This document shows positions 319-38,619 of a stretch of DNA of 39,027 bases, in pieces (positions within the stretch are counted from its first letter, which is position 1; each line of letters opens with the position of its first letter). The stretch is from a virus (taxonomy: Duplodnaviria; Caudoviricetes). Where the stretch lies: IMG/VR virus record IMGVR_UViG_3300012933_000205, positions 1 through 39,027 of that record; one strand, written 5' to 3'. Position numbers and translations under genes: made by a program. Below the pieces are notes generated by a model. It was given only the letters and a program-made list of their open reading frames with translations, was not told the origin of the DNA and did no database searches.

Positions 319-747
319 TCACGCCTCACGCATCATCCGCGCATAGTCTTGGGCGGTGTAGTCAACCGCCCCGCCTTCGGTGTAGTGCCTATAAATGCCC
401 GTGGCCTCTAATGAGGTTTTAAGGGAATGGCAGTGAGGGCAGAGACTTTGCAGCCTTGCACGTTTAAAAGCAAATTCACCCACCGCCCGCCACGCAATAA
501 CGTGGTCAACGTGCGCCGCCTGCACAATGCGCCCTTCTAACTTGCAAGACTGGCAAAGGGGCTGCACTGACAATTGCGCCGCCCTCATGGATAACCACGC
601 CGCCGTTTTATATGGCGCGTTATTTTCCCGCCTCTGTGCGGTTTGCTTGGGTTTGCCCCCGTGGGTTTCGCAATACGCCGAACCCGCCACCCGTTCGGAC
701 TTACACCGCAGGGCTTCGCACTTAGTTGGTTTGGGTAATGTAGCCAT
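319..747 (-). CDS. HNH endonuclease, terminase-associated (HK97 gp74-like)
   Basis: PLCQSC...VDHV...LQSLCPHCHSLKT HNH/Zn motifs and an N-terminal Cys/His knuckle. Lies upstream of terS on the circular map. Start placed at MATLPK. Confidence 0.88.
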   Translation of the reverse strand: MATLPKPTKCEALRCKSERVAGSAYCETHGGKPKQTAQRRENNAPYKTAAWLSMRAAQLSVQPLCQSCKLEGRIVQAAHVDHVIAWRAVGEFAFKRARLQSLCPHCHSLKTSLEATGIYRHYTEGGAVDYTAQDYARMMREA

Positions 748-754
748 TCTCACA

Positions 755-791
755 TTATCCACACCCCGCGCACTTATCCACACTATCCACA
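755..791 (+). promoter_or_regulatory. DnaA-box cluster
   Basis: TTATCCACA at 755-763 and 774-782, CTATCCACA (1 mismatch) at 783-791. Confidence 0.7.
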
Positions 792-976
792 CTCCGCACC
801 GTTTAGGTGTGTAAACGGTTTACTTTGGTGCATCATGCACCATTAGTGGTTTTTAATACTTCCCCTCTAGTATACTTTTCTAAACCTTACGGTTTCAATT
901 TAGGGGGTTTAAGCATTGGCACACATCCTGCAAATATAAATTGACCGCGCAATGAAGTGCGGCACAAAAAAAGGGG

Positions 977-3497: not shown

Positions 3498-3902
3498 TTA
3501 CTTCAAGAAGCGCAGCTTGTAGAGTGTTGAGTTGATGAGATTGGCAATGTTGTCCACCTCGTTCTGCAACTCTGAGTCCTGTGGGAACTTAGGGTCACGG
3601 CGCAGCTTCTCTACCTCGGCCTTGAGGTAGTTCATGTAGGCAATTGGGTCTGACGGTTGCTCGTAGTTCGTTGTGTAGTTTGTCAGCAGGCCATACTTGC
3701 CTTGGAACGCCTCAACAAATCCGTCAACAAGGTCGCCTATTTCTGCGTAGAAATTTCCGAGTGCTTGGTGGGTCGAGTAGCTGGTGGTGGATAAATGCAG
3801 GATGTGAGCATTGGTTACGCTGTGCAATAGGCACATAACGAATGTCATCACAGGGTCGGCCCCTTTGTGTTGCGCTTCAATGCTGGCTGTATATTTCTTC
3901 AT
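3498..3902 (-). CDS. Ferritin/Dps-like four-helix protein (DUF5856-like)
   Basis: HILHL...SYSTHQALGNFY...DGFVEAFQGKYG and C-terminal YKLRFLK. Confidence 0.75.
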   Translation of the reverse strand: MKKYTASIEAQHKGADPVMTFVMCLLHSVTNAHILHLSTTSYSTHQALGNFYAEIGDLVDGFVEAFQGKYGLLTNYTTNYEQPSDPIAYMNYLKAEVEKLRRDPKFPQDSELQNEVDNIANLINSTLYKLRFLK

Positions 3903-4242
3903 TCCAGATGTCCTCGTACTGTTGGTCGAATGGGATTGGCACTTCACTAGGCCACATCCCTGTCTGCGTCAATTTTCTCACAGTCCTGTAATGAGCGACA
4001 ACCCATAGCTTCATTCTTTGCTCACGGCTCAACAAGTGGCCTTGGTCAATGGCGTGATGACAGGTCTGGCATAGGGCGGCAATGTGATTGTCATCAGCCT
4101 TGATTGACCTACCCTTGCCTCCTCCCCAATTGGTGTGAGCAGCCTGAATCCCATAGTCTGAGCCACAGGATTGACAAGATAGCGTCCTCACTGCCTTGAG
4201 CAGCTTAGGGCTACGGACGTATTCGTGCTTGGGGTACATCAT
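3877..4242 (-). CDS. DUF1364-like Zn-binding putative nuclease
   Basis: RSPKLL...CQSCG...AAH...GKG...KADD...LCQTCH. Confidence 0.75.
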   Translation of the reverse strand: MMYPKHEYVRSPKLLKAVRTLSCQSCGSDYGIQAAHTNWGGGKGRSIKADDNHIAALCQTCHHAIDQGHLLSREQRMKLWVVAHYRTVRKLTQTGMWPSEVPIPFDQQYEDIWNEEIYSQH

Positions 4243-4460
4243 TCTTTGTCTACCGCCTCCATGATGTGAACACAACTCCATTCACCCATTTCAGCAAACT
4301 CTTGCGCCCATTCTTTACGCTCTTTAGCTGCTACCAGTTTGGCAAATGCTTTAATCTGATGAGGTGTTCCCCACAGATAGTCACCAACAGTCCCACTAGG
4401 TGCTGTCGCTGCTTTCATGCCAGCCTGTTTAGCCATCTCAATGATTTCATCTTGTGTCAT
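4239..4460 (-). CDS. Hypothetical protein (nin-like region)
   Basis: 73 aa, DEIIEMAKQAG...FAKLVAAKER motif, overlaps next start. Confidence 0.7.
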   Translation of the reverse strand: MTQDEIIEMAKQAGMKAATAPSGTVGDYLWGTPHQIKAFAKLVAAKERKEWAQEFAEMGEWSCVHIMEAVDKE

Positions 4461-8475: not shown

Positions 8476-9291
8476 TCATACCTTCATCCCCTTTGTCAAT
8501 TCAGCCATCTTTGCCTTGATATCGGCAGGCATTGGAACAGCCTTCTTTCGGTCTTCCGCAATCTTCTTGAGAGCAGCATCTTGATTCGGTGGTGGCGGTG
8601 TAGTGGTGTGCGCTACATCAAACTTGCTTGTCATTGCCTTACGCTCGTCAGGCTTTAGCCATTCAGCCATCAAACCCTGCGAACCGCGCAAACACCAAAC
8701 TCGGAAAAAGTCTTCCAAGGACATTCCAGCTTTACCAGCCTCAGACCTTGCGCCATCAACAGCCGTTTGAGTGACCTTGGCGCTCTTTGCTTTGCGAAGC
8801 GATACCCAATCATCCCAAACCTGTTTATCAACATCTGGTGGACAGGCAACGACAGTTGCCGCAGCCTTGGCTGCTTTCTTTTCCCTTTCCTTTTCCTTTC
8901 CATTCCCTTCCATTCCCACTGGTAGGACTACCGTAGTGGTAACGGAATCATCCAACACTTCACACAAAGCCTTGATTTTGCTTGGGTTTTTCTTGTTGAT
9001 GACTTGGTGCTTGGCAAAGTTGCAGATATGACCATATCGCTTTCCGTCATGGCCTTTATACAGCTCTATGTAACCAATACGGTGAAGCTCATCAATCATT
9101 ACGGTAATTGTGTTGGAAAGCTCCCGTAGTGGAAATATGTCCGACTCTATAAGTTTGGGATGAGCGTTGAAATAACCTTCGTCATCAGCATGGTTGAGCA
9201 ATCCAATCGCCAACAATGCTGCTTCTGGAGTCACGGAGGCCAATGATTCATCGCGCCAAAAGTCTGGCTTGATTGTTCTAATTCGAGCCAT
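8476..9291 (-). CDS. Phage replication initiator / replisome organiser (lambda O analogue)
   Basis: MARIRTIKPDFW...LLNHADDEG N-terminus, charged linker, C-terminal W.DW...RKAK...W.G domain. Confidence 0.75.
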   Translation of the reverse strand: MARIRTIKPDFWRDESLASVTPEAALLAIGLLNHADDEGYFNAHPKLIESDIFPLRELSNTITVMIDELHRIGYIELYKGHDGKRYGHICNFAKHQVINKKNPSKIKALCEVLDDSVTTTVVLPVGMEGNGKEKEREKKAAKAAATVVACPPDVDKQVWDDWVSLRKAKSAKVTQTAVDGARSEAGKAGMSLEDFFRVWCLRGSQGLMAEWLKPDERKAMTSKFDVAHTTTPPPPNQDAALKKIAEDRKKAVPMPADIKAKMAELTKGMKV

Positions 9292-9658
9292 TGTGCTTCT
9301 CCACAAAAAGTCTAGTTAGTTCATCTTTGGTAAATGAACCAAGAACATCACAAAGGCTGTCCATTTCGTAAGAACCCCAATATCCCATCTTTACTATGGC
9401 AATCAACAAATTCGCTTTTGATGCGTCAAGCTCCGAATGCTCATCATGGTGACAATCTGAGCAAAGAGTAATGATTGCGTCTATTTCATAGTCCCACGGG
9501 CCTTCCGCCAAAGGGTGATAAACAGGATGATGAGCATTAAGTGTTTTGCTTGAATTTCCACAAGCTCGGCACTTCCATTCGTCACGGTCAAATACGCGAA
9601 GACGAAGTTGTTGCCAACGAGGGTCTAGCAGCTTTTCAGCATAGGTTTTTTTAGTCAT
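9278..9658 (-). CDS. HNH endonuclease (free-standing)
   Basis: YAEKLLDPRWQ..R...RD...CRACG...HH...LCSDCH. Confidence 0.85.
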   Translation of the reverse strand: MTKKTYAEKLLDPRWQQLRLRVFDRDEWKCRACGNSSKTLNAHHPVYHPLAEGPWDYEIDAIITLCSDCHHDEHSELDASKANLLIAIVKMGYWGSYEMDSLCDVLGSFTKDELTRLFVEKHNGSN

Positions 9659-9674
9659 AACCACTTTTTCAACG

Positions 9675-9770
9675 CCCCTTTGAAAGAAACAATCGGCAGG
9701 AGAAGGGGGAAACTCTTTTCGGTACGCTCATGACTTCGTACCTAGCCGCTGTTTCAAAAACTATATCACA
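9675..9770 (-). promoter_or_regulatory. Extended -10 promoter plus structured 5' leader (three-way junction)
   Basis: TGaTATAGT near 9760-9768 followed by four nested helices (see findings). Confidence 0.55.
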
Positions 9771-10071
9771 CTTCTTTGACGAATATGCCTTCCTCGTTCA
9801 TGTAACCCTTGCGGTCTTTGATTTCGCCGTAGGCAACAGACAAGCATTCAACCAAATCAATATCCAGAAGGGCGCAAATGTTGATGAGGCATACCACGGT
9901 GTCACCTACGCCATCAATCGCCAACGCAAGGTCGTTTGCAACGATTGCATCACGCAATTCTTCCATCTCCTCCATGCCCTTTTTCCATTGGGCGATAGGG
10001 GTGCTGTTCGGAATAATCTTACGAGCTTCCGACCACTGGATGACTTTCATTTCAAGTTCTGAATAACTCAT
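9766..10071 (-). CDS. MazG-like NTP pyrophosphohydrolase
   Basis: KGMEEMEEL...DGVGDTVVCL...AYGEIKDRKG. Confidence 0.85.
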   Translation of the reverse strand: MSYSELEMKVIQWSEARKIIPNSTPIAQWKKGMEEMEELRDAIVANDLALAIDGVGDTVVCLINICALLDIDLVECLSVAYGEIKDRKGYMNEEGIFVKEV

Positions 10072-12120: not shown

Positions 12121-12612
12121 ATGACATCCCTCTATCAACTTAGCCATGAGTTTCGTAATCAGCTTGACGACCTGTTCGACGAGGACGGCGTAGCCAAGCC
12201 TGAGTTTGAGGAGTTCCGTGTTCAGCTTGGCAGCAAGATTACACAAGTTGCGGCCTATGTACTGAACACAGAATCCGAGGCAGAACAAGCCAAGAACGCC
12301 ATCAAGCGTATTAAGGCTCTCCAAACATCAAGGGAAAACAAGGCCAAACGGCTTCGTGAGTACCTTGCTGACAACATGAAAGTCTCAGGCATCACAGAGA
12401 TTAAAGCCGATGATGGCTCTTTTGAAGTGAAGCTGTATGTTGGCCGAGATGAATCGGTTGAGATTGACGAAGGGGCAACCTTTCCACCCGAGCTTTGCAA
12501 TGACCCAAAGCCACCAGAGCCAAGCAAGACCAAGATTAAAAACGCAATCTTGGCTGGCGAAGCTATCGGCGGCGCACAGATTATTCGCAAAGACCGTTTA
12601 ACCATCAAATAG
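12121..12612 (+). CDS. Siphovirus Gp157-family protein
   Basis: SLYQL..., long coiled coil, K..IK.AI..GE.I.GA......L.IK C-terminus. Confidence 0.85.
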   Translation: MTSLYQLSHEFRNQLDDLFDEDGVAKPEFEEFRVQLGSKITQVAAYVLNTESEAEQAKNAIKRIKALQTSRENKAKRLREYLADNMKVSGITEIKADDGSFEVKLYVGRDESVEIDEGATFPPELCNDPKPPEPSKTKIKNAILAGEAIGGAQIIRKDRLTIK

Positions 12613-30160: not shown

Positions 30161-30685
30161 TTAAGTGTTGTTAGACCAACCGTAGCTATTGCCGCCAACA
30201 GGGTGGATTGTGAAGTTGAACTTGCCTTCGGCAGATGGAGACATATCCCAAGACATACCGCCAATCATGCCGTTGAAGGCGTAAGCAACAGTGTCAGTGC
30301 CGTCATATACAGCAACAACGTAAGTGCGAACGATTGTGCCGTTGTAGCCGTCATCACGAATCAACAACTGAGCAGTGTCAGCAGGGTTCCATGCAGAGGT
30401 AACAGCCAAAGATGTCACTTGGTTTTGAGTGGTGATTTTTGCACCAGTACGAGCGCCAGCCACAGAGTAAGCTGCAACAGCATCGTCAGCACCGAATGCA
30501 GGCACAGCTTCCACTGGAATTTGAATGCCAGCAGTACCAGTACCACCAGCGGTAGTGCCAACGATGGTAGCGACTTGAGCAGTCCAAGTGTTCAACTGAC
30601 TATCAGTCAGAGGAGTTGGAGTTGCGTCATCTTGACACCAGAGGGTTGCAACGTAGCCGGGTAAGACTTTATTGATGAGAGCCAT
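30161..30685 (-). CDS. Major tail tube protein
   Basis: AAGGA RBS before MALINK, position, AFNG.I....W......E...NFTI. Confidence 0.75.
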   Translation of the reverse strand: MALINKVLPGYVATLWCQDDATPTPLTDSQLNTWTAQVATIVGTTAGGTGTAGIQIPVEAVPAFGADDAVAAYSVAGARTGAKITTQNQVTSLAVTSAWNPADTAQLLIRDDGYNGTIVRTYVVAVYDGTDTVAYAFNGMIGGMSWDMSPSAEGKFNFTIHPVGGNSYGWSNNT

Positions 30686-30720
30686 TTTGATTTCCTTTGA
30701 AAAGAGTTGATGTAACTGTC

Positions 30721-31140
30721 TTATGCTGGAACATCTATTGTGCAATCCAAGAAGACTTGCGCCAAATTCTGCTCGTTGTCATAGCTGTTGTATAGCCAAA
30801 CCACATCGGCCTTCGCAATGAAGAACCCATCGGTAGGACTACCAAATTGACCACTATAACCGTGTAGGGATTGTAGTACCTGATTGGAAATAGTGAAACC
30901 GTCTTCAATCTTCTGAGTGAAGATGGAGATTTGGAACACGGGGCGGTCGATGCCTTTGTTGCCCTGTGTTTGACCTGTGTAAACAGGTTGGTGGACGTTA
31001 CGCAATTGCCATGTGAGGAACTTCGGCTCTCTCGCAAAATTGCGGTTGAACGAAGCGTACACAGGGACGGGCGTGACAATGTTTGCCAATTGATATTGGA
31101 TTGCCTTGCCGTACAGAACTGGATTGAGCTGAGTCGTCAT
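30721..31140 (-). CDS. Tail terminator / completion protein (DUF3168-like)
   Basis: Position and FQISIF...LHGYSG motif. Confidence 0.7.
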   Translation of the reverse strand: MTTQLNPVLYGKAIQYQLANIVTPVPVYASFNRNFAREPKFLTWQLRNVHQPVYTGQTQGNKGIDRPVFQISIFTQKIEDGFTISNQVLQSLHGYSGQFGSPTDGFFIAKADVVWLYNSYDNEQNLAQVFLDCTIDVPA

Positions 31141-31481: not shown

Positions 31482-32153
31482 TTACATCACCAATGGTTTG
31501 TAAGGACGCAGCAAGCATTGAACTCCCCAAGGGATGTTGTGCTGAATTGGGCCTGTGGTGTCGCTACGATTGTTGTAGAGGTGAGTCAACAACAGCAAAC
31601 CAGCCTGCTTAATTACGGGGTAAGCCGCCAAGGGGTTTGCCGCTGTTGTGTACTCGCAAATCACAGGCGATGTCATCGAACTGTTTAGGTTCGTCGGCAG
31701 ACTCGCCACAACAACTTTGTTGCCAGATGGGTCGTAGTAATACTCGCCGACATCAACCGTGATTAACTCAGGCGGGTTGTTGTCGTTCCAATATTTGACC
31801 GCATTGATGGTCACACCAGAAAGCGATGGTGTCGCATTCTGGCTAACCTCTGGCAAGTCCAATGTCAATGGGGTTCCATTGAGACTGGCTGCGTTATACC
31901 AAACGCGATATGACGTTGGGAAGATGGACATACCAAGGAAATCCTCGATGGTCATGCGAACAGCCACTTCTAGGCCAGTCAAATAACCATCTTGGCTTTC
32001 ATCATCAAACAGGTTTAACTGATTGGTGACTTCATCCATTGTCAACCAAGGGGTAGCAATGTCACGACTGATTTGCTCTGTCTTTGCGTAGTTAAACGGA
32101 TTGCGGGTTCCCCCGCCGTAGTTCAAGTAACCGAGTTGTGAATCAGCCGCCAT
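31482..32153 (-). CDS. Head-tail connector (HK97 gp6-like)
   Basis: LT.DEV..QL...D.YL..L, IKQA.LLLL.HLY.NR, LLRPYK. Confidence 0.85.
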   Translation of the reverse strand: MAADSQLGYLNYGGGTRNPFNYAKTEQISRDIATPWLTMDEVTNQLNLFDDESQDGYLTGLEVAVRMTIEDFLGMSIFPTSYRVWYNAASLNGTPLTLDLPEVSQNATPSLSGVTINAVKYWNDNNPPELITVDVGEYYYDPSGNKVVVASLPTNLNSSMTSPVICEYTTAANPLAAYPVIKQAGLLLLTHLYNNRSDTTGPIQHNIPWGVQCLLRPYKPLVM

Positions 32154-32163
32154 TTTTCACCTC

Positions 32164-33180
32164 TTATGCTGCGCTAACACGAACACCCGCGAACGGGTCA
32201 CGCACAGAGCTTACCAGACGTTTTTCGGCGTACAGCGTGATGAAGCCGGGCTGTGTCTGCTCATACATCTGAACATTCATTTGCTCGGTATCGCCGATTG
32301 TCAAAAAGCGATTCCAGTTTGCCAAATAGACAGGGAAATCGGTAGACAAGTATGGGTTTGGAATGACAGGCCAACCGAACACGCGACCAACAGCCGCGCC
32401 ATCAGCATCGCCAATTTCCAAGAACAGAGGCATACCAGAAGTGTCTTTCAACTCACGCAGAGCCAAAATCATTGCTGGACTCATTTGCCAAGCTGTACCT
32501 TCCAGTGACCAATACTGAGCAGGCAGAGCGTTTGCAGTGTCCACAATCTTGTTGTAGGTCACAGCAGTGCCACCCAAAGACACAGTAGCAATGTCGTGCA
32601 AGCCATCGGTCATTGCAGTGCCGCTTGAGCCGTAGGCGCTCACGGAGCCAGAAGGGTAGCTATCCAAACCGCGCAGACCGTATTCAGCGCCAGTAGCATC
32701 GGTTGTGGAGCCAGATTGGTCGTCGTTCAAGACCATTGATTGACCTTCCAATTGAGCGAACTCAAGTGCCAAGTCTTCAACCAATGTAGCGTCCAGAGCG
32801 TTCACATCGGACAACACGGCAGTACGGATTGGAAGCTGTGCAACCAACACTCGCACTGGCAATTGCCAAATGGATGTATCAACATCAGGCGAGCCTGAGT
32901 TGGGAGTAAATTCGTAACCCCAAGGATTTGTAGAGTTTGCGGCGTTACCAGTCTTGGCAACGAATTGAGCATCAGAGCCGTTCACGGCAATTTGGCGCGA
33001 GCCTTGACGCAGTGGGTTTGCTTGACGCAGGGCGGCAAACGCATCGTCGAATACAACATTACCACCAACGCCCGAACCAGAACCAGTGATTGCAGAGGCT
33101 TCTTTCAGGTCAATGGTGACTTTGCCACCTTCGGTAATGGCTTGCTTAATGCCGTTCAGGATTTTTTCGGTGATAGTCAT
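32164..33180 (-). CDS. Second HK97-fold capsid protein (paralog, 338 aa, short N-terminus)
   Basis: Colinear motifs with 33238-34581. Start MTITEK preceded by GGA. Confidence 0.88.
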   Translation of the reverse strand: MTITEKILNGIKQAITEGGKVTIDLKEASAITGSGSGVGGNVVFDDAFAALRQANPLRQGSRQIAVNGSDAQFVAKTGNAANSTNPWGYEFTPNSGSPDVDTSIWQLPVRVLVAQLPIRTAVLSDVNALDATLVEDLALEFAQLEGQSMVLNDDQSGSTTDATGAEYGLRGLDSYPSGSVSAYGSSGTAMTDGLHDIATVSLGGTAVTYNKIVDTANALPAQYWSLEGTAWQMSPAMILALRELKDTSGMPLFLEIGDADGAAVGRVFGWPVIPNPYLSTDFPVYLANWNRFLTIGDTEQMNVQMYEQTQPGFITLYAEKRLVSSVRDPFAGVRVSAA

Positions 33181-33199
33181 AGTTATTCCAATGAGAGTT

Positions 33200-33226
33200 A
33201 AAAAGATGGGAGCCGAAGCCCCCATC
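33200..33226 (-). terminator. Intrinsic terminator between the two capsid genes
   Basis: GATGGGGGC-TTCG-GCTCCCATC-TTTTT (cUUCGg tetraloop). Confidence 0.85.
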
Positions 33227-33237
33227 CAAGGCAACTA

Positions 33238-34581
33238 TCAGGTTGCAGTGCCAGTCGAGCGGTAACGCACGATTGCGAACGGGTCGCGCACCGATGTAGC
33301 CAAACGCTTCTCACCGAAGAAGGTGATGTAGCCGGGGGCTGTCTGGTCATAACGGCGCATGACCATGTTCAGGCGGTCAATGATGGTGTGGCCGCGAGAC
33401 CAGTCACCGAAGTACATTGGGTACAAGCTAGTTGTGCCAGCAGAGCCAGTTGTGGTTTGAGATGGAGTGTCCAAGTACTTGTTCACAACAACGTCAAAGC
33501 CCAACAAGCGACCAACGATGCCGTTGGTTTCCAGAGGAGACATACGCTCAAACACAGGAGTGCCGTTGTCGTCAACCAAGCCACGGATTTGAGCCAACAA
33601 GACAGGGCTAATGATGAACTTAGCAGAATCAGTCCAGTATTGTTGTGGCAAGGCGTAGATGAAGTTCACAACGTCTTTGTAGGTGATGTTTGCAGCACCA
33701 ACAGTGTTCACGTTAGAAGTCAACTGGTCATAAGTAGCCAAGCTGTGCAAACCGCTTGTAGAGCCAGTACCGCTTGTGCCGAAGGCAGCAGTAGAAGTTG
33801 TACCACCAGCGTAGGTGCTGTTAGCGCCTGCGTATTGGTTCAAGCCGCGCAAGCCGTTAGAGCCGCCGTATGGCAAGCTGGTAGCGCCTTGGTCGTTGTT
33901 TTGAATCATTGACAGAGCTTCGGCTTGTGCGAATTCAGCCAACATATCGTCAACCACGTTTGCTTCCAAACCGTCGATGTCGTCAAGAGCAGCAGTACGG
34001 ATAGGGAACTGCACGTTCAAGTCTTGCAAAACCAATTGCCAGATTGAAGTGTTTTCAGTTGTCGCCGAACCGTTGTTCTGGATTGTGTAGCCCCATGCAG
34101 CACCAGCATTGCCAGTCTTCACACGGAATTGATAGCTAGAGCCATCGGTAGCCACAGTGCGAGACACGCCGCGCATTGGGTTAGCCAAACGCAGAGCAGC
34201 AAACACAGGGTCATAAGCAGTACGACCGCCTTTACCGTCACCGCCAGCAGTCAGAGCCGAGGCTTCTTTCATGTAGGCTTCCATTTGAGATTCGTCTGCG
34301 AAAACTTGCAGTTGTTTCTCAAGAGTGTTTTTGCCTTCGGCGATTGCCTTGAGCTGTTCTTTCACAGAACGGTTCACATCAGCGCGAACTGACTTGGCTT
34401 TTTCTTTGTGGACTGCGGCAGCAGGAATAGCAGCAACTTTGGCTTCCAAAGCAGCAACCATTTCGCTCATCTCGGCTTTAACAGCTTCGATAGCAGCAGG
34501 GATTTTGGCTTCAACAGCCACGATGCTCTCAGCTTGTTTAGCTTCGATGGCATCCAATTTTTCGATGATTTCTTTTGACAT
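33238..34581 (-). CDS. Major capsid protein, HK97 family, with N-terminal delta (scaffold) domain
   Basis: About 105 aa coiled-coil N-terminus, GRLLGFDVV, YFGDW, EKR....VRDP.A. Confidence 0.93.
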   Translation of the reverse strand: MSKEIIEKLDAIEAKQAESIVAVEAKIPAAIEAVKAEMSEMVAALEAKVAAIPAAAVHKEKAKSVRADVNRSVKEQLKAIAEGKNTLEKQLQVFADESQMEAYMKEASALTAGGDGKGGRTAYDPVFAALRLANPMRGVSRTVATDGSSYQFRVKTGNAGAAWGYTIQNNGSATTENTSIWQLVLQDLNVQFPIRTAALDDIDGLEANVVDDMLAEFAQAEALSMIQNNDQGATSLPYGGSNGLRGLNQYAGANSTYAGGTTSTAAFGTSGTGSTSGLHSLATYDQLTSNVNTVGAANITYKDVVNFIYALPQQYWTDSAKFIISPVLLAQIRGLVDDNGTPVFERMSPLETNGIVGRLLGFDVVVNKYLDTPSQTTTGSAGTTSLYPMYFGDWSRGHTIIDRLNMVMRRYDQTAPGYITFFGEKRLATSVRDPFAIVRYRSTGTAT

Positions 34582-34583
34582 GA

Positions 34584-35384
34584 TTAACCTTTTAGGCGTT
34601 TGTCGAGGAGTTTTAACAATTCGCGTTGCTCAAGAGCCGCGAGAATTGTCGCGTTGGTCGCTTCCGCATCAGAATCGCTCTGAGTCGTCGCAGCTTCAAT
34701 AGGCTCTTGAGTAGCATCACGCTGCTCAATTACTTTCTTGAATGTAGATGCGGCAGCGACCGCATCTTTCTTGGATAGACCAGCATCACGCAGGGCTTGT
34801 TCCAAAACTTTCAGGTCGGCAGTGCCATCAGCGCGGAAATATTCCAGCTTTTGCACTTCGGCCATTGGATTGTTTGGGTACATCACGACTGAAACTTCGC
34901 GCAGACCACCTTTGGTGATTTGGAAGTAGCCGTCTTCGTATGGGTCATCAGAACCAACGGTCATTGGAGTACCGTCTTCTTTTGTCCACTGATATTCTTC
35001 GGCGTATGCGCCAACAGACACGCCACCAAACATATTTGGCGATTCGCTCATAACTTGATACAAGTCAGAACCTTGAGTGGTGTTGACATACAAGCGACCG
35101 CAGGCTTTCATGCCAGTTTCGTCAAACTCAAATGATGTCCACTCGCCCACAGGGATGGAATCAGCATCATGGTTCACAAACATTGGCAGAGGACGACCAG
35201 CTTTGCTGAACGACTCGGCCCATTGCATAAATGCTTCTGGTTGATAGTTGAACTTGCGACCGTCAGCGCCTTCGCGTGGCCCCCAAGTTGTGACAACTGC
35301 CTCAATATTGCCTGTTGGCTCTGCGTTGCCTGCTTTTTCGAGAACCAGTTTGGCCTCGCACACCATCATCAAGTTTTGCGTCAT
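34584..35384 (-). CDS. Prohead maturation protease (HK97 family)
   Basis: PMFVNHD...PVG.W, GVSVG, LREVSVV.YP.NP.A, LEQALRDAGLS. Confidence 0.9.
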   Translation of the reverse strand: MTQNLMMVCEAKLVLEKAGNAEPTGNIEAVVTTWGPREGADGRKFNYQPEAFMQWAESFSKAGRPLPMFVNHDADSIPVGEWTSFEFDETGMKACGRLYVNTTQGSDLYQVMSESPNMFGGVSVGAYAEEYQWTKEDGTPMTVGSDDPYEDGYFQITKGGLREVSVVMYPNNPMAEVQKLEYFRADGTADLKVLEQALRDAGLSKKDAVAAASTFKKVIEQRDATQEPIEAATTQSDSDAEATNATILAALEQRELLKLLDKRLKG

Positions 35385-35517: not shown

Positions 35518-36915
35518 TTATTTGCCGATGTTCGCTTTGTTCTTTTGGTTGCCACCACCGCCGCCAGTATCTTGAGGGCTTGAACCTGCAATTGGGTCGC
35601 TTGGTTTTGTGTCTTGCTTTAATTCGTTGCCGCCTTCCATTTGAGCTTTACCCAAATATTCACGCGCTTCGTTTGGAGTCAGAACACCAGCATCGACACC
35701 AGCCTTCACATAGTTCATTTGGTCGATTGGAGCACCCTTCAAGAAGTTTGCTGTATCGAAATGAACACACAACGAAGGATAGCCGTTGAACAACTGCTGC
35801 TTCAATTTCTCTTGGACGTTAACGATGGTTGGGTACATCGTTGACTTGTAGAACTCGTCCAACATGGTCTGAGTGTTGTTGTATTTCTGGTCTGCAATTC
35901 CAACCATTGCTGGAGGCACACCAAACAAACCACAAATGCGCTTCATGGTTTGAATCTTCAACTCGGCAGCTTGTGTGTCTTGCAAAGTGAGAATGTCGAT
36001 TGGGGTGTACTTCATGCCTTGGTCGAGCAACATACCTTGGCCCGGCTTCGACTCATCAGTGCGTTGGCTACCAGTCATGTTTGACCAAGCCTCTTTCAAG
36101 CGCGAGGCCAATTCCTTGTACTTGCCATCAGGAATGACTTGCTCGGTCGTGAACATACCCGTTGGCTTTGCGCCATTGAGCATGATGAAGTTGGCGTAAA
36201 CGTCAATGTCTTGGTCGAGCGTAACCAATTCAGCAGCCAAGATGCCTTTGTTGAAACCAGCCGAACCTTGCCATGCTGCCTCTTTAATGTGCATCACTTG
36301 ATGCGCGGCCAACGGCTCGTCTTTGCTGAAACCGTATGAAGGGGTAGACAGACGGTATGAAGGATAACGAGCAGGGTTGATGGTCACGGCAATCAACGTG
36401 GAATCCAACACATACATCTCCATTGGAGTCTGTGAAGGGTTCTTTTGGTCTTCGCGCCACCACAAGGTAAACGCTTCGCCAGACAATTCCAACCACATGA
36501 GCCACTGATACCAGAACTCATACTTCGATTGGAAATTGTTGGGGTTGTTCAACAGCTTGGAAACTTGCTTAGCCTTGTTCTTGTCACGAACGCCAACAGA
36601 CTTGTCTTTCACAGCGTCAAGGTACGAACCGTCCTCTTGCTCTGACATGATTTTGATTGGCAACTGAGCCAAAGCTCTTGCCTTTGCGCCGACGCAAGCC
36701 ATGACGGTGCTGTTGCGAGTCAATAGGCTCATGTCGATTGTGCGACCAGCAGAGTTTGTGCTGGCAGTCGTCACATACAGTACTTGGGTGTTGACTGTTG
36801 GGCGTGTATTGCTGCCCGAATAGACAATGTTGTTACCTAGAGCCGTTTGGCCGAAAAGGTTGTTGCTTTCGTCCGATTGCGTGGACTTGCGCTTGAAAAT
36901 GTCGAGAATAGCCAT
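35518..36915 (-). CDS. Portal protein, HK97 family
   Basis: V.ACV...A..LAQLP, PN.FQ, NGAKP.G, I...FGVPP, LTPNEAR, AGGAG RBS before MAILD. Confidence 0.95.
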   Translation of the reverse strand: MAILDIFKRKSTQSDESNNLFGQTALGNNIVYSGSNTRPTVNTQVLYVTTASTNSAGRTIDMSLLTRNSTVMACVGAKARALAQLPIKIMSEQEDGSYLDAVKDKSVGVRDKNKAKQVSKLLNNPNNFQSKYEFWYQWLMWLELSGEAFTLWWREDQKNPSQTPMEMYVLDSTLIAVTINPARYPSYRLSTPSYGFSKDEPLAAHQVMHIKEAAWQGSAGFNKGILAAELVTLDQDIDVYANFIMLNGAKPTGMFTTEQVIPDGKYKELASRLKEAWSNMTGSQRTDESKPGQGMLLDQGMKYTPIDILTLQDTQAAELKIQTMKRICGLFGVPPAMVGIADQKYNNTQTMLDEFYKSTMYPTIVNVQEKLKQQLFNGYPSLCVHFDTANFLKGAPIDQMNYVKAGVDAGVLTPNEAREYLGKAQMEGGNELKQDTKPSDPIAGSSPQDTGGGGGNQKNKANIGK

Positions 36916-36945
36916 GTCAGCTCCTAGTTTCCGTGATGTTATCAC

Positions 36946-38619
36946 TCAAAATAATCGTAGTCCATAGGAGTCTGATACGAATACGTTATCTAAATGGCAG
37001 TGCAACGCCATAATCATGGCGATGATTCCGTCCACCTTGGCAGATGGGTCGGCCTCGTTTTTTCTCACTTTTACGTTGCCGTTCACATCGGTGTATACCT
37101 CACAGTTACCGAGTTGCCACCCCACAAACGGATTTCCATCGTGCTTGATGGCTTTTTTAAGGATGAGCTGTTCTGCCGTTTTCGACGGGTTGGATAGTAC
37201 TGCCATGCCTTGTCCAACCTTTTTGACTGGAAGGCCATAGGAGAAAAGATTGGCGACAAGAGCAGCAGCGTTGTAAGGGTCATAGCCAATTTCTTTGACT
37301 TCATAGGTTTCGGCCTCTTGTCGAATGTAGGACTCAATCTCGTTTAGGTCGGTCACGTTGCCGGGCGTGAGGTGCAGGATGCCAGATGCCACGGCCTGAC
37401 TAAAGATTGATTTGTAGTGGTTCGGAATCAGCTCAATCGACTCCTCTGGCAAGAAGAATTTGAACTTGGCGTACAGGTCTTCCTCGGCATATCGGTGCAA
37501 CGTCACCACAGCATTCAAGTCTCGGCTATGGGCCAAGTCAAATCCAATGAACGTGGCTTCTGGCTTGTCAGCAGGCAAAGGAGCCACGGACTCATCCCAA
37601 TATCGACGGTCAACCCATGCCGCATTGGAGCTGACGTAAATGTTGAGCTGCTTGCACAAGAACTCGTTGAGGGACGCAGGCTTGCTCTTGGCTTCGTCGG
37701 CCATGTGCTGAATTGCCTCAGTCGTCACAGACACGCCAAGCATGGGATTGGCCTTGCCCCATACGGCGGGGTCAGACCACTCATCGCCGGGGTCTACCGA
37801 GTACAACAAGCCAAACCAACGATGCGAGTCCTCCGCCGCCCCACGCAGAACAGCACGAAAGTGATTCAAGTCCTCAAAGAACTTTGTCTCCTTGGTGAAG
37901 CTGGCTGTCGTCAAATACATCCTTAAAGGATTCTTACGAGCAGCCATGCCTGAGTGCAACACTTCGATTGAGCCGCGCTCGGTAATCTGAGCCGCCTCGT
38001 CAATCATCGCGCATGATGGGTTTTTGCCGTCACCAGTCTTACGGTTCTCACGGGACAGGGCGCGGTAGGTGGATGTCGAGTCACCCGCCTTTTTCAGCTC
38101 ACTTCGGAATGGAATGAATCGGCTTTGCAGTTCGGGAGCCATGCTTTCCATAATGGCCTTGGATGAGTCAAAGCAGATTGATGCCTGCTCTCGGTTGGTC
38201 GCCAGTGTGAACACTTCGGGGCCAGCCTCGCCAAACAGTAGCTCGTAGAGAGCAATGATGGACGCAAGGGTTGTCTTACCAGACTTGCGAGGCACAAACA
38301 GGATAACGTCCGTCACCCATCGAATGCTGTGGTCTGACTTGTTGCGGAATCCATACACCGCAGCGAGAAACAGGACTTGGAATCCCTCAAGCTCAATCGA
38401 CTTTCCTGCGTCTGGCCCTTTGACATGGCGGCAAAACTTGGCGAACTTGAGGATGTGTTCAGCCTTGGCGGGGACGAACTCATAGGGCGCATCCTTGCGC
38501 TCAACCATATCCAAGAATCGCTGACAAGCAATCTTGACATCCTCGCAAGCGAGTAGGTCGCCGCGAACTACGGCAGTAGCGTACTTAAACGCAGGCTCAA
38601 GCAGTATTGAATAGCTCAT
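36946..38619 (-). CDS. terL: Terminase large subunit
   Basis: Walker A VPRKSGKT, Walker B MIDE, W.KANP.LG, GFDLA, KVDG. Confidence 0.96.
   Translation of the reverse strand: MSYSILLEPAFKYATAVVRGDLLACEDVKIACQRFLDMVERKDAPYEFVPAKAEHILKFAKFCRHVKGPDAGKSIELEGFQVLFLAAVYGFRNKSDHSIRWVTDVILFVPRKSGKTTLASIIALYELLFGEAGPEVFTLATNREQASICFDSSKAIMESMAPELQSRFIPFRSELKKAGDSTSTYRALSRENRKTGDGKNPSCAMIDEAAQITERGSIEVLHSGMAARKNPLRMYLTTASFTKETKFFEDLNHFRAVLRGAAEDSHRWFGLLYSVDPGDEWSDPAVWGKANPMLGVSVTTEAIQHMADEAKSKPASLNEFLCKQLNIYVSSNAAWVDRRYWDESVAPLPADKPEATFIGFDLAHSRDLNAVVTLHRYAEEDLYAKFKFFLPEESIELIPNHYKSIFSQAVASGILHLTPGNVTDLNEIESYIRQEAETYEVKEIGYDPYNAAALVANLFSYGLPVKKVGQGMAVLSNPSKTAEQLILKKAIKHDGNPFVGWQLGNCEVYTDVNGNVKVRKNEADPSAKVDGIIAMIMALHCHLDNVFVSDSYGLRLF

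What the first reader, a model, noticed from the sequence alone, without database searches (positions are those of the whole stretch)
32164..34581. Two tandem, diverged HK97-fold capsid genes: candidate two-component capsid in a small siphovirus
Seen: the 447-aa and 338-aa proteins are colinear over the whole mature fold (FAALR.ANP.R..SR, QF..KTGNA, TSIWQL, PIRTA.L.D, EFAQ.E..SM..N.DQ, GLRGL..Y, ALP.QYW, Y.QT.PG.IT...EKRL..SVRDPFA.VR). Both are intact yet clearly diverged, so this is not an assembly duplicate. Copy 1 has a ~105-aa coiled-coil delta domain and copy 2 only ~27 aa. Both retain KEASA(L/I)T at the start of the mature domain. Established: HK97-like phages build hexamers and pentamers from one protein, whereas dedicated vertex paralogs are known from large phages such as T4 (gp23/gp24). 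Inference: both are protease-matured at the shared site and co-assemble, with copy 2 as a minor penton or portal-proximal subunit, or as a capsid size/stability variant.
Basis: partly seen in the sequence, partly recalled or inferred. Interest (0 to 1): 0.82.

Follow-up and report, generated by a model that had tools for sequence, protein, structure and literature searches.

The report
Second capsid gene, likely vertex protein
A large family of small freshwater phages carries two related head-shell genes side by side, and the second, trimmed copy likely builds the corners of the head, a division of labour already shown in a few other phages.

Summary
Observation confirmed. Two intact HK97-fold capsid genes (447 and 338 aa, 41% identical) lie between the prohead protease and the adaptor. 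Copy 2 is no accident: it follows copy 1 in 128 of 128 evaluable loci fetched with copy-1 queries, is under the same purifying selection (dN/dS about 0.15), forms its own clade, and is present, unannotated, in the cultured siphophage P19250A. It lacks the scaffold domain, has an axial domain about 18 residues shorter, sits behind a conserved terminator-like hairpin and has weaker codon bias, which fits a low-copy subunit. The shared site is [L/M]-x-E-A-S; the K of 'KEASA' is not conserved. In one pair of otherwise near-identical phages the copy-2 gene alone was exchanged for a 64%-identical allele. Best reading (0.7, inferred; no virion data): copy 1 makes hexamers, copy 2 the 11 pentamers. 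This is a likely independent, less diverged instance with a culturable test system. The scan noted this family three times before on other DNA.

The parts
36946..38619 (-). Terminase large subunit, 557 aa
   Evidence: phrog_9 E 8e-132; 62% to P19250A TerL
35518..36945 (-). Portal protein, 475 aa (HK97 type)
   Evidence: PF04860, phrog_12
34584..35384 (-). Prohead protease, 266 aa
   Evidence: PF04586 Peptidase_S78 E 2e-10; phrog_80
33238..34581 (-). Capsid copy 1, 447 aa: major capsid protein, likely the hexamer subunit
   Evidence: PF05065 E 3e-29; 63% to the annotated capsid protein of P19250A; strongest codon bias of the module
34264..34581 (-). N-terminal delta (scaffold) domain of copy 1, residues 1-106, predicted to be removed
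   Evidence: No counterpart in copy 2; helical in a low-confidence model; removal inferred from HK97 biology (recalled)
34258..34272 (-). Predicted maturation site of copy 1, [L/M]-x-E-A-S (E106)
   Evidence: E in 187/187 relatives; cleavage not shown
33200..33227 (-). Intrinsic-terminator-like hairpin with UUCG loop and U tract between the two capsid genes
   Evidence: Top site; z -3.8; 180 of 205 distinct junctions, 0 of 191 after copy 2, 2 of 205 shuffled
32164..33180 (-). Capsid copy 2, 338 aa: HK97-fold paralog, likely vertex (pentamer) protein
   Evidence: PF05065 E 2e-22; model and fold searches; conservation; 55% to P19250A gp6
33100..33180 (-). Short conserved leader of copy 2 (residues 1-27; predicted helix plus strand), predicted to be removed
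   Evidence: 26 residues before E in 147 of 183 proteins; I7, L8, I11, K12, G18, L25 each in at least 160 of 172
33094..33108 (-). Predicted maturation site of copy 2, L-x-E-A-S (E27)
   Evidence: E in 182/183 relatives; cleavage not shown
32305..32595 (-). Axial (A) domain region of copy 2 (residues about 196-292), shorter and least shared with copy 1
   Evidence: Median 100 versus 118 residues; cross-paralog identity 0.31; boundaries assigned by me from the model's secondary structure and recalled HK97 topology
31482..32153 (-). Head-tail adaptor, 223 aa
   Evidence: phrog_40 and phrog_442

Best explanation
This phage family keeps two intact, separately conserved HK97-fold capsid genes, and copy 2 is likely a dedicated vertex protein that forms the 11 pentamers while copy 1 likely forms the hexamers. 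Shown: both genes are intact, always together, under purifying selection, in separate clades; copy 2 lacks the scaffold domain, has shorter axial-domain loops and C-terminus, and lies behind a conserved terminator-like hairpin. [quoted passage not shown] A T=7 head (inferred from the 39-kb genome) would hold 360 copy-1 and 55 copy-2 subunits.
For: Co-occurrence: copy 2 follows copy 1 in 128 of 128 evaluable distinct loci fetched with copy-1 queries (134 distinct, 6 cut by contig ends). Selection: median dN/dS 0.14 (copy 1) and 0.15 (copy 2), maxima 0.31 and 0.34. Clades: 36 versus 36 rows, SH-aLRT 100; deeper relatives also sort into the two clades. Anatomy: A-domain region 100 versus 118 residues, three loops and the C-terminus shorter, cross-paralog identity lowest in the A-domain (0.31) and highest in the N-arm (0.57) and post-spine loop (0.60). 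This resembles Jabs MCPp (smaller axial domain, no C-terminal extension, no maturation domain) and Nocturne116 VP (next gene, no scaffold, shortened A-tip loop). T4 gp24 loses a 10-residue leader to the same protease as gp23, and some bypass mutations lie in the gp23 A-domain. Low copy: hairpin; codon bias higher in copy 1 in 153 of 174 loci. Exchange: L112 and L114 are about 100% identical in copy 1 and the adaptor but 64% in mature copy 2, with the A-domain helices most different, which is easier to explain if copy-2 A-domains touch only each other. All four phage or satellite cases with structures that I read put the second HK97 protein in pentamers.
Against: No virion proteomics or structure exists in what I saw; presence of copy 2 in particles is inferred. 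Identity (41%) is about twice that of the known hexon/penton pairs (17-24%), and copy 2 keeps a full N-arm and E-loop, unlike Nocturne116 VP, so mixing with copy 1 is more plausible here than there. The A-domain is also among the most variable regions within each paralog (0.68 and 0.54), so part of its low cross-identity is ordinary. Codon bias is coarse: the tail-tube gene, a high-copy protein, also scores low (0.44). Terminators after major capsid genes are ordinary (recalled), and the P19250A junction did not pass the strict terminator test. Only one clean exchange event was found.
Confidence: 0.7

Rival explanations
1. Copy 2 mixes with copy 1 in both hexamers and pentamers at a ratio set by expression, like the two-component Family 2B encapsulin.
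For: [quoted passage not shown]
Against: Those encapsulin HK97 domains are about 70% identical; here the A-domains share 31% and differ by about 18 residues; an identical copy 1 tolerates a copy 2 with different A-domain helices; copy 2 has no delta domain.
Confidence: 0.12
2. Copy 2 occupies another restricted site: a few subunits around the portal, or one class of hexamer position.
For: Low-expression position next to the adaptor gene; some relatives fuse to copy 2 a 100-aa domain that other phages carry in the gene between portal and capsid.
Against: No such precedent in the papers read; the full HK97 fold with a trimmed A-domain fits a ring centre better than a portal contact.
Confidence: 0.08
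3. Copy 2 is a size or shape switch: an optional penton that competes with copy-1 pentons and sets head geometry, as SaPIbov5 Ccm does.
For: Ccm pentamers redirect phi12 heads from prolate to isometric; the Nocturne116 authors speculate that VP relates to prolate shape; copy-2 alleles are exchanged.
Against: No evaluable locus lacks copy 2, which argues for an obligatory part; complete relatives listed are of similar length, about 36-41 kb. Head shape of this family was not seen in any paper read beyond 'siphovirus'.
Confidence: 0.07
4. Copy 2 is not a virion protein (assembly chaperone, decoy or decaying duplicate).
For: No direct evidence of incorporation.
Against: dN/dS equal to copy 1; conserved maturation motif and N-arm; complete fold.
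Confidence: 0.03

Closest known systems
Lactococcus phage Nocturne116 and c2-like phages: MCP (ORF18) plus vertex protein VP (ORF19), J Virol 2026, PMC13595954
   Same: Small siphophage; the second HK97-fold gene directly follows the MCP, has no scaffold domain and a shortened A-domain loop; VP forms 11 pentamers.
   Different: About 24% identity; VP almost lacks the N-arm and has a small E-loop; prolate head with isopeptide crosslinks; protease fused to MCP. Here 41% identity, full N-arm and E-loop, a leader with a shared maturation motif, separate protease. No tblastn match outside P19250A for copy 2 among 50,697 phage records.
Mycobacterium abscessus siphophage Jabs: MCPh (ORF72) and MCPp (ORF73), T=9, bioRxiv 10.64898/2026.07.24.740622
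   Same: Adjacent genes; hexon protein has a removed N-terminal domain and a C-terminal extension; penton protein has a smaller axial domain with shorter loops.
   Different: 18% identity; MCPp is modelled from residue 3, so no leader is removed; disulfide-linked shell, whereas neither copy here has a cysteine.
Phage T4 gp23 / gp24 (review PMC9958956)
   Same: Paralog forms the 11 pentamers; both proteins are cut by the one prohead protease, gp24 losing a short leader; A-domain decides hexamer versus pentamer.
   Different: Large prolate myovirus with a separate scaffold core; about 20% identity.
SaPIbov5 Ccm with phi12 capsid protein (PMC8569155)
   Same: HK97-type capsid homolog that forms pure pentamers among CP hexamers.
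   Different: Encoded by a satellite, optional, has its own delta domain, changes head shape; 24% identity.
Methylophilaceae phage P19250A (KX815270), gp5 and gp6
   Same: Same gene order and both genes: 63% to copy 1, 55% to copy 2. A cultured siphovirus of freshwater LD28 bacteria.
   Different: gp6 is annotated 'hypothetical protein'; no structure or proteome seen.
Two-component Family 2B encapsulin of Streptomyces lydicus (PMC11071501)
   Same: Two tandem HK97-fold shell proteins.
   Different: About 70% identical, randomly mixed T=1 shells, not a virus.

Membership tests
HK97-fold phage capsid proteins (PF05065, phrog_10) | Sequence match above the curated cut-off, both copies | tested here: met
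   102.6 and 80.3 bits against cut-off 24.2
HK97-fold phage capsid proteins (PF05065, phrog_10) | HK97 fold in a structural model, copy 2 | tested here: met
   Z 21.0, rmsd 3.4 A, 247 aligned to 6tb9; Z 15.9, rmsd 4.2 A, 237 aligned to HK97 1ohg
HK97-fold phage capsid proteins (PF05065, phrog_10) | HK97 fold in a structural model, copy 1 | tested here: inconclusive
   Model unusable, pLDDT 43, pTM 0.34; sequence match to the GTA capsid 6tb9 E 2e-6
Dedicated vertex (penton) proteins: T4 gp24, Nocturne116 VP, Jabs MCPp, Ccm | HK97-fold paralog of the major capsid protein, stably kept beside it | tested here: met
Dedicated vertex (penton) proteins: T4 gp24, Nocturne116 VP, Jabs MCPp, Ccm | No scaffold domain and trimmed axial domain (seen in VP and MCPp; not in Ccm) | tested here: met
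   Leader about 26 aa; A-domain region 100 versus 118 residues
Dedicated vertex (penton) proteins: T4 gp24, Nocturne116 VP, Jabs MCPp, Ccm | Bent spine helix or steeper subunit angle | not testable with these tools
Dedicated vertex (penton) proteins: T4 gp24, Nocturne116 VP, Jabs MCPp, Ccm | Present in virions at 55 copies as homo-pentamers | not testable with these tools
   Needs mass spectrometry and cryo-EM
Dedicated vertex (penton) proteins: T4 gp24, Nocturne116 VP, Jabs MCPp, Ccm | Descent from any of the known vertex proteins | tested here: inconclusive
   Copy 1 and copy 2 are far closer to each other than to any other cultured capsid found and group together (support 85-92, FastTree), which suggests an independent duplication; the known vertex sequences were not aligned directly
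Randomly mixed two-component HK97 shells (Family 2B encapsulin type) | High identity (about 70%) and near-identical HK97 domains | tested here: not met
   33-46% between copies, median 42%; A-domain 31%
P19250A-like freshwater siphophages | Same head-tail gene order and closest cultured match | tested here: met

The most novel reading that the evidence does not exclude
The vertex gene is a plug-in module: one hexamer protein accepts interchangeable penton alleles that phages swap as whole cassettes and that take on extra domains (an E-loop insert matching a tail-fibre family, a post-spine insert, a 100-aa N-terminal domain), so the 11 corners serve as a variable display and stability platform across one of the commonest freshwater phage families. 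At 41% identity the pair would also be the least diverged hexon/penton split among those read here, allowing the residues that decide five-fold versus six-fold assembly to be mapped by chimeras.
Probability: 0.25. Interest if true: 0.7.

Novelty: new variant of a known kind. Interest (0 to 1): 0.48.

Why it matters
Quasi-equivalence lets one HK97-fold protein build both hexamers and pentamers; why some phages split the job is open (the Nocturne116 authors call the benefit unclear). This family would add a likely independent origin, represented by roughly 800-1,500 stored stretches in IMG/VR by the tool's estimates, with hundreds of natural sequence pairs and a cultured member on a harmless lake bacterium. 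The high identity between the copies and the natural allele exchange make the pentamer/hexamer determinants directly testable. It also corrects an annotation: P19250A gp6 is an HK97-fold capsid paralog.

Tried and rejected
Assembly duplicate or pseudogene: rejected (41% identity, intact in relatives, dN/dS about 0.15). 356-aa TTG start: rejected. K-specific cleavage at 'KEASA': rejected. Homology of the copy-2 leader to part of the copy-1 delta domain: no support by hhalign (probability 0.3). Copy-1 structure prediction failed, so the two models could not be compared. A copy-2 homotrimer prediction was never run because the queue was full; no result. A single-capsid sister lineage was sought and not found: P0133, P0153, P0155 and P0168 branch outside both clades, but scans with P0133 returned only unrelated HK97 phages and the deep alignments A3 and A4 returned only main-family loci; P0153, P0155 and P0168 were not used as queries, so the gene context of all deep rows is unknown. 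Host not determined: the nine genome-contig hits are MAG contigs of mixed taxa. Venkman, described as syntenic with P19250A, gave no listed match; absence from the collection is not excluded. RNA libraries X10 and X16 hold contigs spanning protease to copy 2, but contigs show neither transcription nor levels; no raw-read run was offered. Literature: no paper describing this pair was found in searches (listings only, except the papers named in the full report); the P19250A paper (Moon et al. 2017, seen only as a reference) was not read and might contain virion data or head dimensions.

Full report
Observation. The window is a 39,027-base phage contig, its own whole assembly. On the minus strand the order is terminase small and large subunits, portal, S78 prohead protease, capsid copy 1 (33238-34581, 447 aa), capsid copy 2 (32164-33180, 338 aa), adaptor and tail genes. 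The copies are 41% identical over 341 residues and both pass the Pfam Phage_capsid cut-off. An AlphaFold model of copy 2 (pLDDT 69) matches HK97-fold shells in three searches. The copy-1 model failed (pLDDT 43) and was not used.

Distribution. The only cultured match for copy 2 among 50,697 phage records is Methylophilaceae phage P19250A (55%), where it is gp6, 'hypothetical protein', behind the annotated capsid gp5. IMG/VR holds on the order of 800-1,500 matching stretches by the tool's estimates; each scan returned the best 80. To avoid circularity I counted the 159 loci fetched with copy-1-type queries: 134 were distinct, 6 were cut by contig ends, and copy 2 followed in 128 of 128 others, down to 64% copy-1 identity. 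Over all 372 loci, 211 of 214 evaluable copy-1 ends had copy 2 as the next gene; of the three exceptions, two have a homing endonuclease gene in between and one is an internal stop in a copy-1 gene whose true end is followed by copy 2. In the reverse count 206 of 211 evaluable copy-2 hits had copy 1 before them; the five others were those two insertions and three unrelated capsids pulled in by a distant query.

Selection and history. Pairwise Nei-Gojobori estimates on 97 gene pairs, keeping comparisons with dS 0.05-1.5 (3,075 and 1,459 of 4,656; not independent), gave median dN/dS 0.14 for copy 1 and 0.15 for copy 2. A quick IQ-TREE run on 36 of the 97 pairs split the copies with SH-aLRT 100 (midpoint root). 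A FastTree with 14 pairs and the 65 full-length hits among the 150 listed placed further distant proteins in each clade, put four rows outside both, and held the group apart from ordinary HK97-family capsids with moderate support. An old duplication within this lineage, independent of T4, c2-like phages and Jabs, is the inference; I did not align those proteins.

Anatomy. In 81 copy-1 and 98 copy-2 representatives (90% clustering), the N-arm, spine helix and P-domain have equal lengths and the E-loop is three residues longer in copy 2. Copy 2 is shorter in the insertion after GLRGL (20-22 versus 29 residues), in two axial-domain loops (by about 8 and 10-15) and at the C-terminus (about 4). Cross-paralog identity is 0.31 in the A-domain and 0.42-0.60 in the other mature regions. 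Region limits are mine, from the model's secondary structure and recalled HK97 topology. Against over-reading: the A-domain also varies most within each copy.

Maturation site. The conserved signal is [L/M]-x-E-A-S, not KEASA. Cleavage after a glutamate in a three-residue motif is shown for the SPN3US protease (A-X-E; PMC10052503, passages); the (I/L)-X-E rule of T4 gp21 is recalled, not seen. Cleavage here is inferred. The copy-2 leader is conserved but shows no detectable homology to the delta domain. My start-picking trimmed four proteins that really carry a 100-aa N-terminal extension.

Expression. A GC-rich hairpin with a U tract lies between the genes (33200-33227). By my criterion (hairpin of -8 kcal/mol or better plus U tract) it occurs in 180 of 205 distinct junctions, 0 of 191 regions after copy 2 and 2 of 205 shuffles; most of the 25 failures, P19250A included, show a hairpin with a weaker tract. 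C-ending codon use in F, Y, N, I is 0.62 for copy 1 and 0.48 for copy 2, near the neck genes (0.39-0.45), and higher in copy 1 in 153 of 174 loci; the tail-tube gene scores 0.44, so this proxy is coarse. RNA-library contigs span both genes but give no levels.

Allele exchange. Among 380 pairs of phages (172 distinct gene pairs) with mature copy 1 at least 93% identical, 54 have copy 2 below 70%, with the A-domain at 45% on average. L112 and L114 are 95-100% identical in DNA on both sides and 56-76% across mature copy 2 only. With both flanking genes at least 90% identical, the middle gene fell below 80% in 5 of 73 pairs for copy 2 (two groups, one clean, one marginal), against 0 of 64, 1 of 212, 0 of 107 and 0 of 117 for its neighbours. 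One clean event is thin, and a chimeric assembly of L112 is not excluded, although both alleles occur in other contigs.

Mechanism. Most likely copy 1 builds hexamers and scaffolds the prohead, copy 2 is made in smaller amount by read-through and forms homo-pentamers at the 11 non-portal vertices, and the one protease trims both (confidence 0.7). Shown: gene pair, conservation, anatomy, hairpin. Inferred: expression ratio, incorporation, cleavage, pentamer position, T=7. Rivals are random mixing (0.12), another restricted site (0.08), a shape switch (0.07) and a non-virion role (0.03).

Comparison with the literature. [quoted passage not shown] Jabs (bioRxiv 10.64898/2026.07.24.740622; abstract and two sections) is T=9 with MCPh and MCPp. 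T4 (PMC9958956, passages), SaPIbov5 Ccm (PMC8569155, passages) and the mixed encapsulin (PMC11071501, abstract and passages) complete the set. P19250A is called a siphovirus of LD28 in 10.1101/2020.04.27.064238 (passages); passages of PMC8024684, PMC5964084, PMC13700489 and 10.1101/2022.09.09.507160 added nothing on the pair. No supplements were opened; those of Jabs (bioRxiv) could bear on the structural comparison. Searches showed no paper on this pair, and the original P19250A paper was not available. The system works like these vertex proteins; membership in the structural sense (55 copies in pentamers) is untested.

Verdict. Real, conserved and probably a dedicated vertex protein; a new variant of a known kind, distinguished by higher identity between the copies, a T4-like shared maturation site with a retained N-arm, and evidence of exchange and domain gain in copy 2. 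Three earlier notes of this scan reached the same reading on other genomes; they are not independent evidence. Interest 0.48.

Noticed in passing
L260:5946-7274, L263:1326-2657, L289:6362-7690, L324:1907-3232; P0136: Copy 2 carries an extra 100-aa N-terminal domain (phrog_2859, unknown function) ahead of the leader; a related domain lies in the long ORF between portal and capsid in unrelated phages L232-L237.
   Followed up: partly
P0143, P0147, P0159, P0165, P0173: Distant copy-2-type proteins bear an insert of about 75 residues, in the E-loop (P0143, matching tail-fibre phrog_38233 and phrog_21413) or after the spine helix (the other four); gene context unknown.
   Followed up: partly
window 30161-30745 (-) and relatives such as L031, L101, L145: Likely tail-tube gene (no PHROG or Pfam hit; Atlas look-alikes are tail-tube clusters). 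46 of 126 loci with a complete homolog have two tandem copies; the window and P19250A have one.
   Followed up: partly
L238:5929-6528, L357:1544-2086: Homing endonuclease gene (phrog_314) inserted directly behind the terminator hairpin, between the two capsid genes.
   Followed up: yes
L215:3030-3032 and L282:4941-4943: In-frame stop at codon about 150 of copy 1; probably an assembly or sequencing error.
   Followed up: no
window 3498-3947 (-): Dps/ferritin-like 'starvation-inducible transcriptional regulator', phrog_858, E 6e-28.
   Followed up: no
window 12121-12612 (+), 9766-10071 (-), 319-792 (-), 3877-4281 (-), 9278-9664 (-): Mu Gam-like end-protection protein, MazG-like pyrophosphatase and three HNH endonuclease genes.
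   Followed up: no
L228 (229-kb MAG contig labelled Burkholderiaceae): The only long cellular-labelled contig carrying the head module with both capsid genes; a possible prophage and host lead.
   Followed up: no
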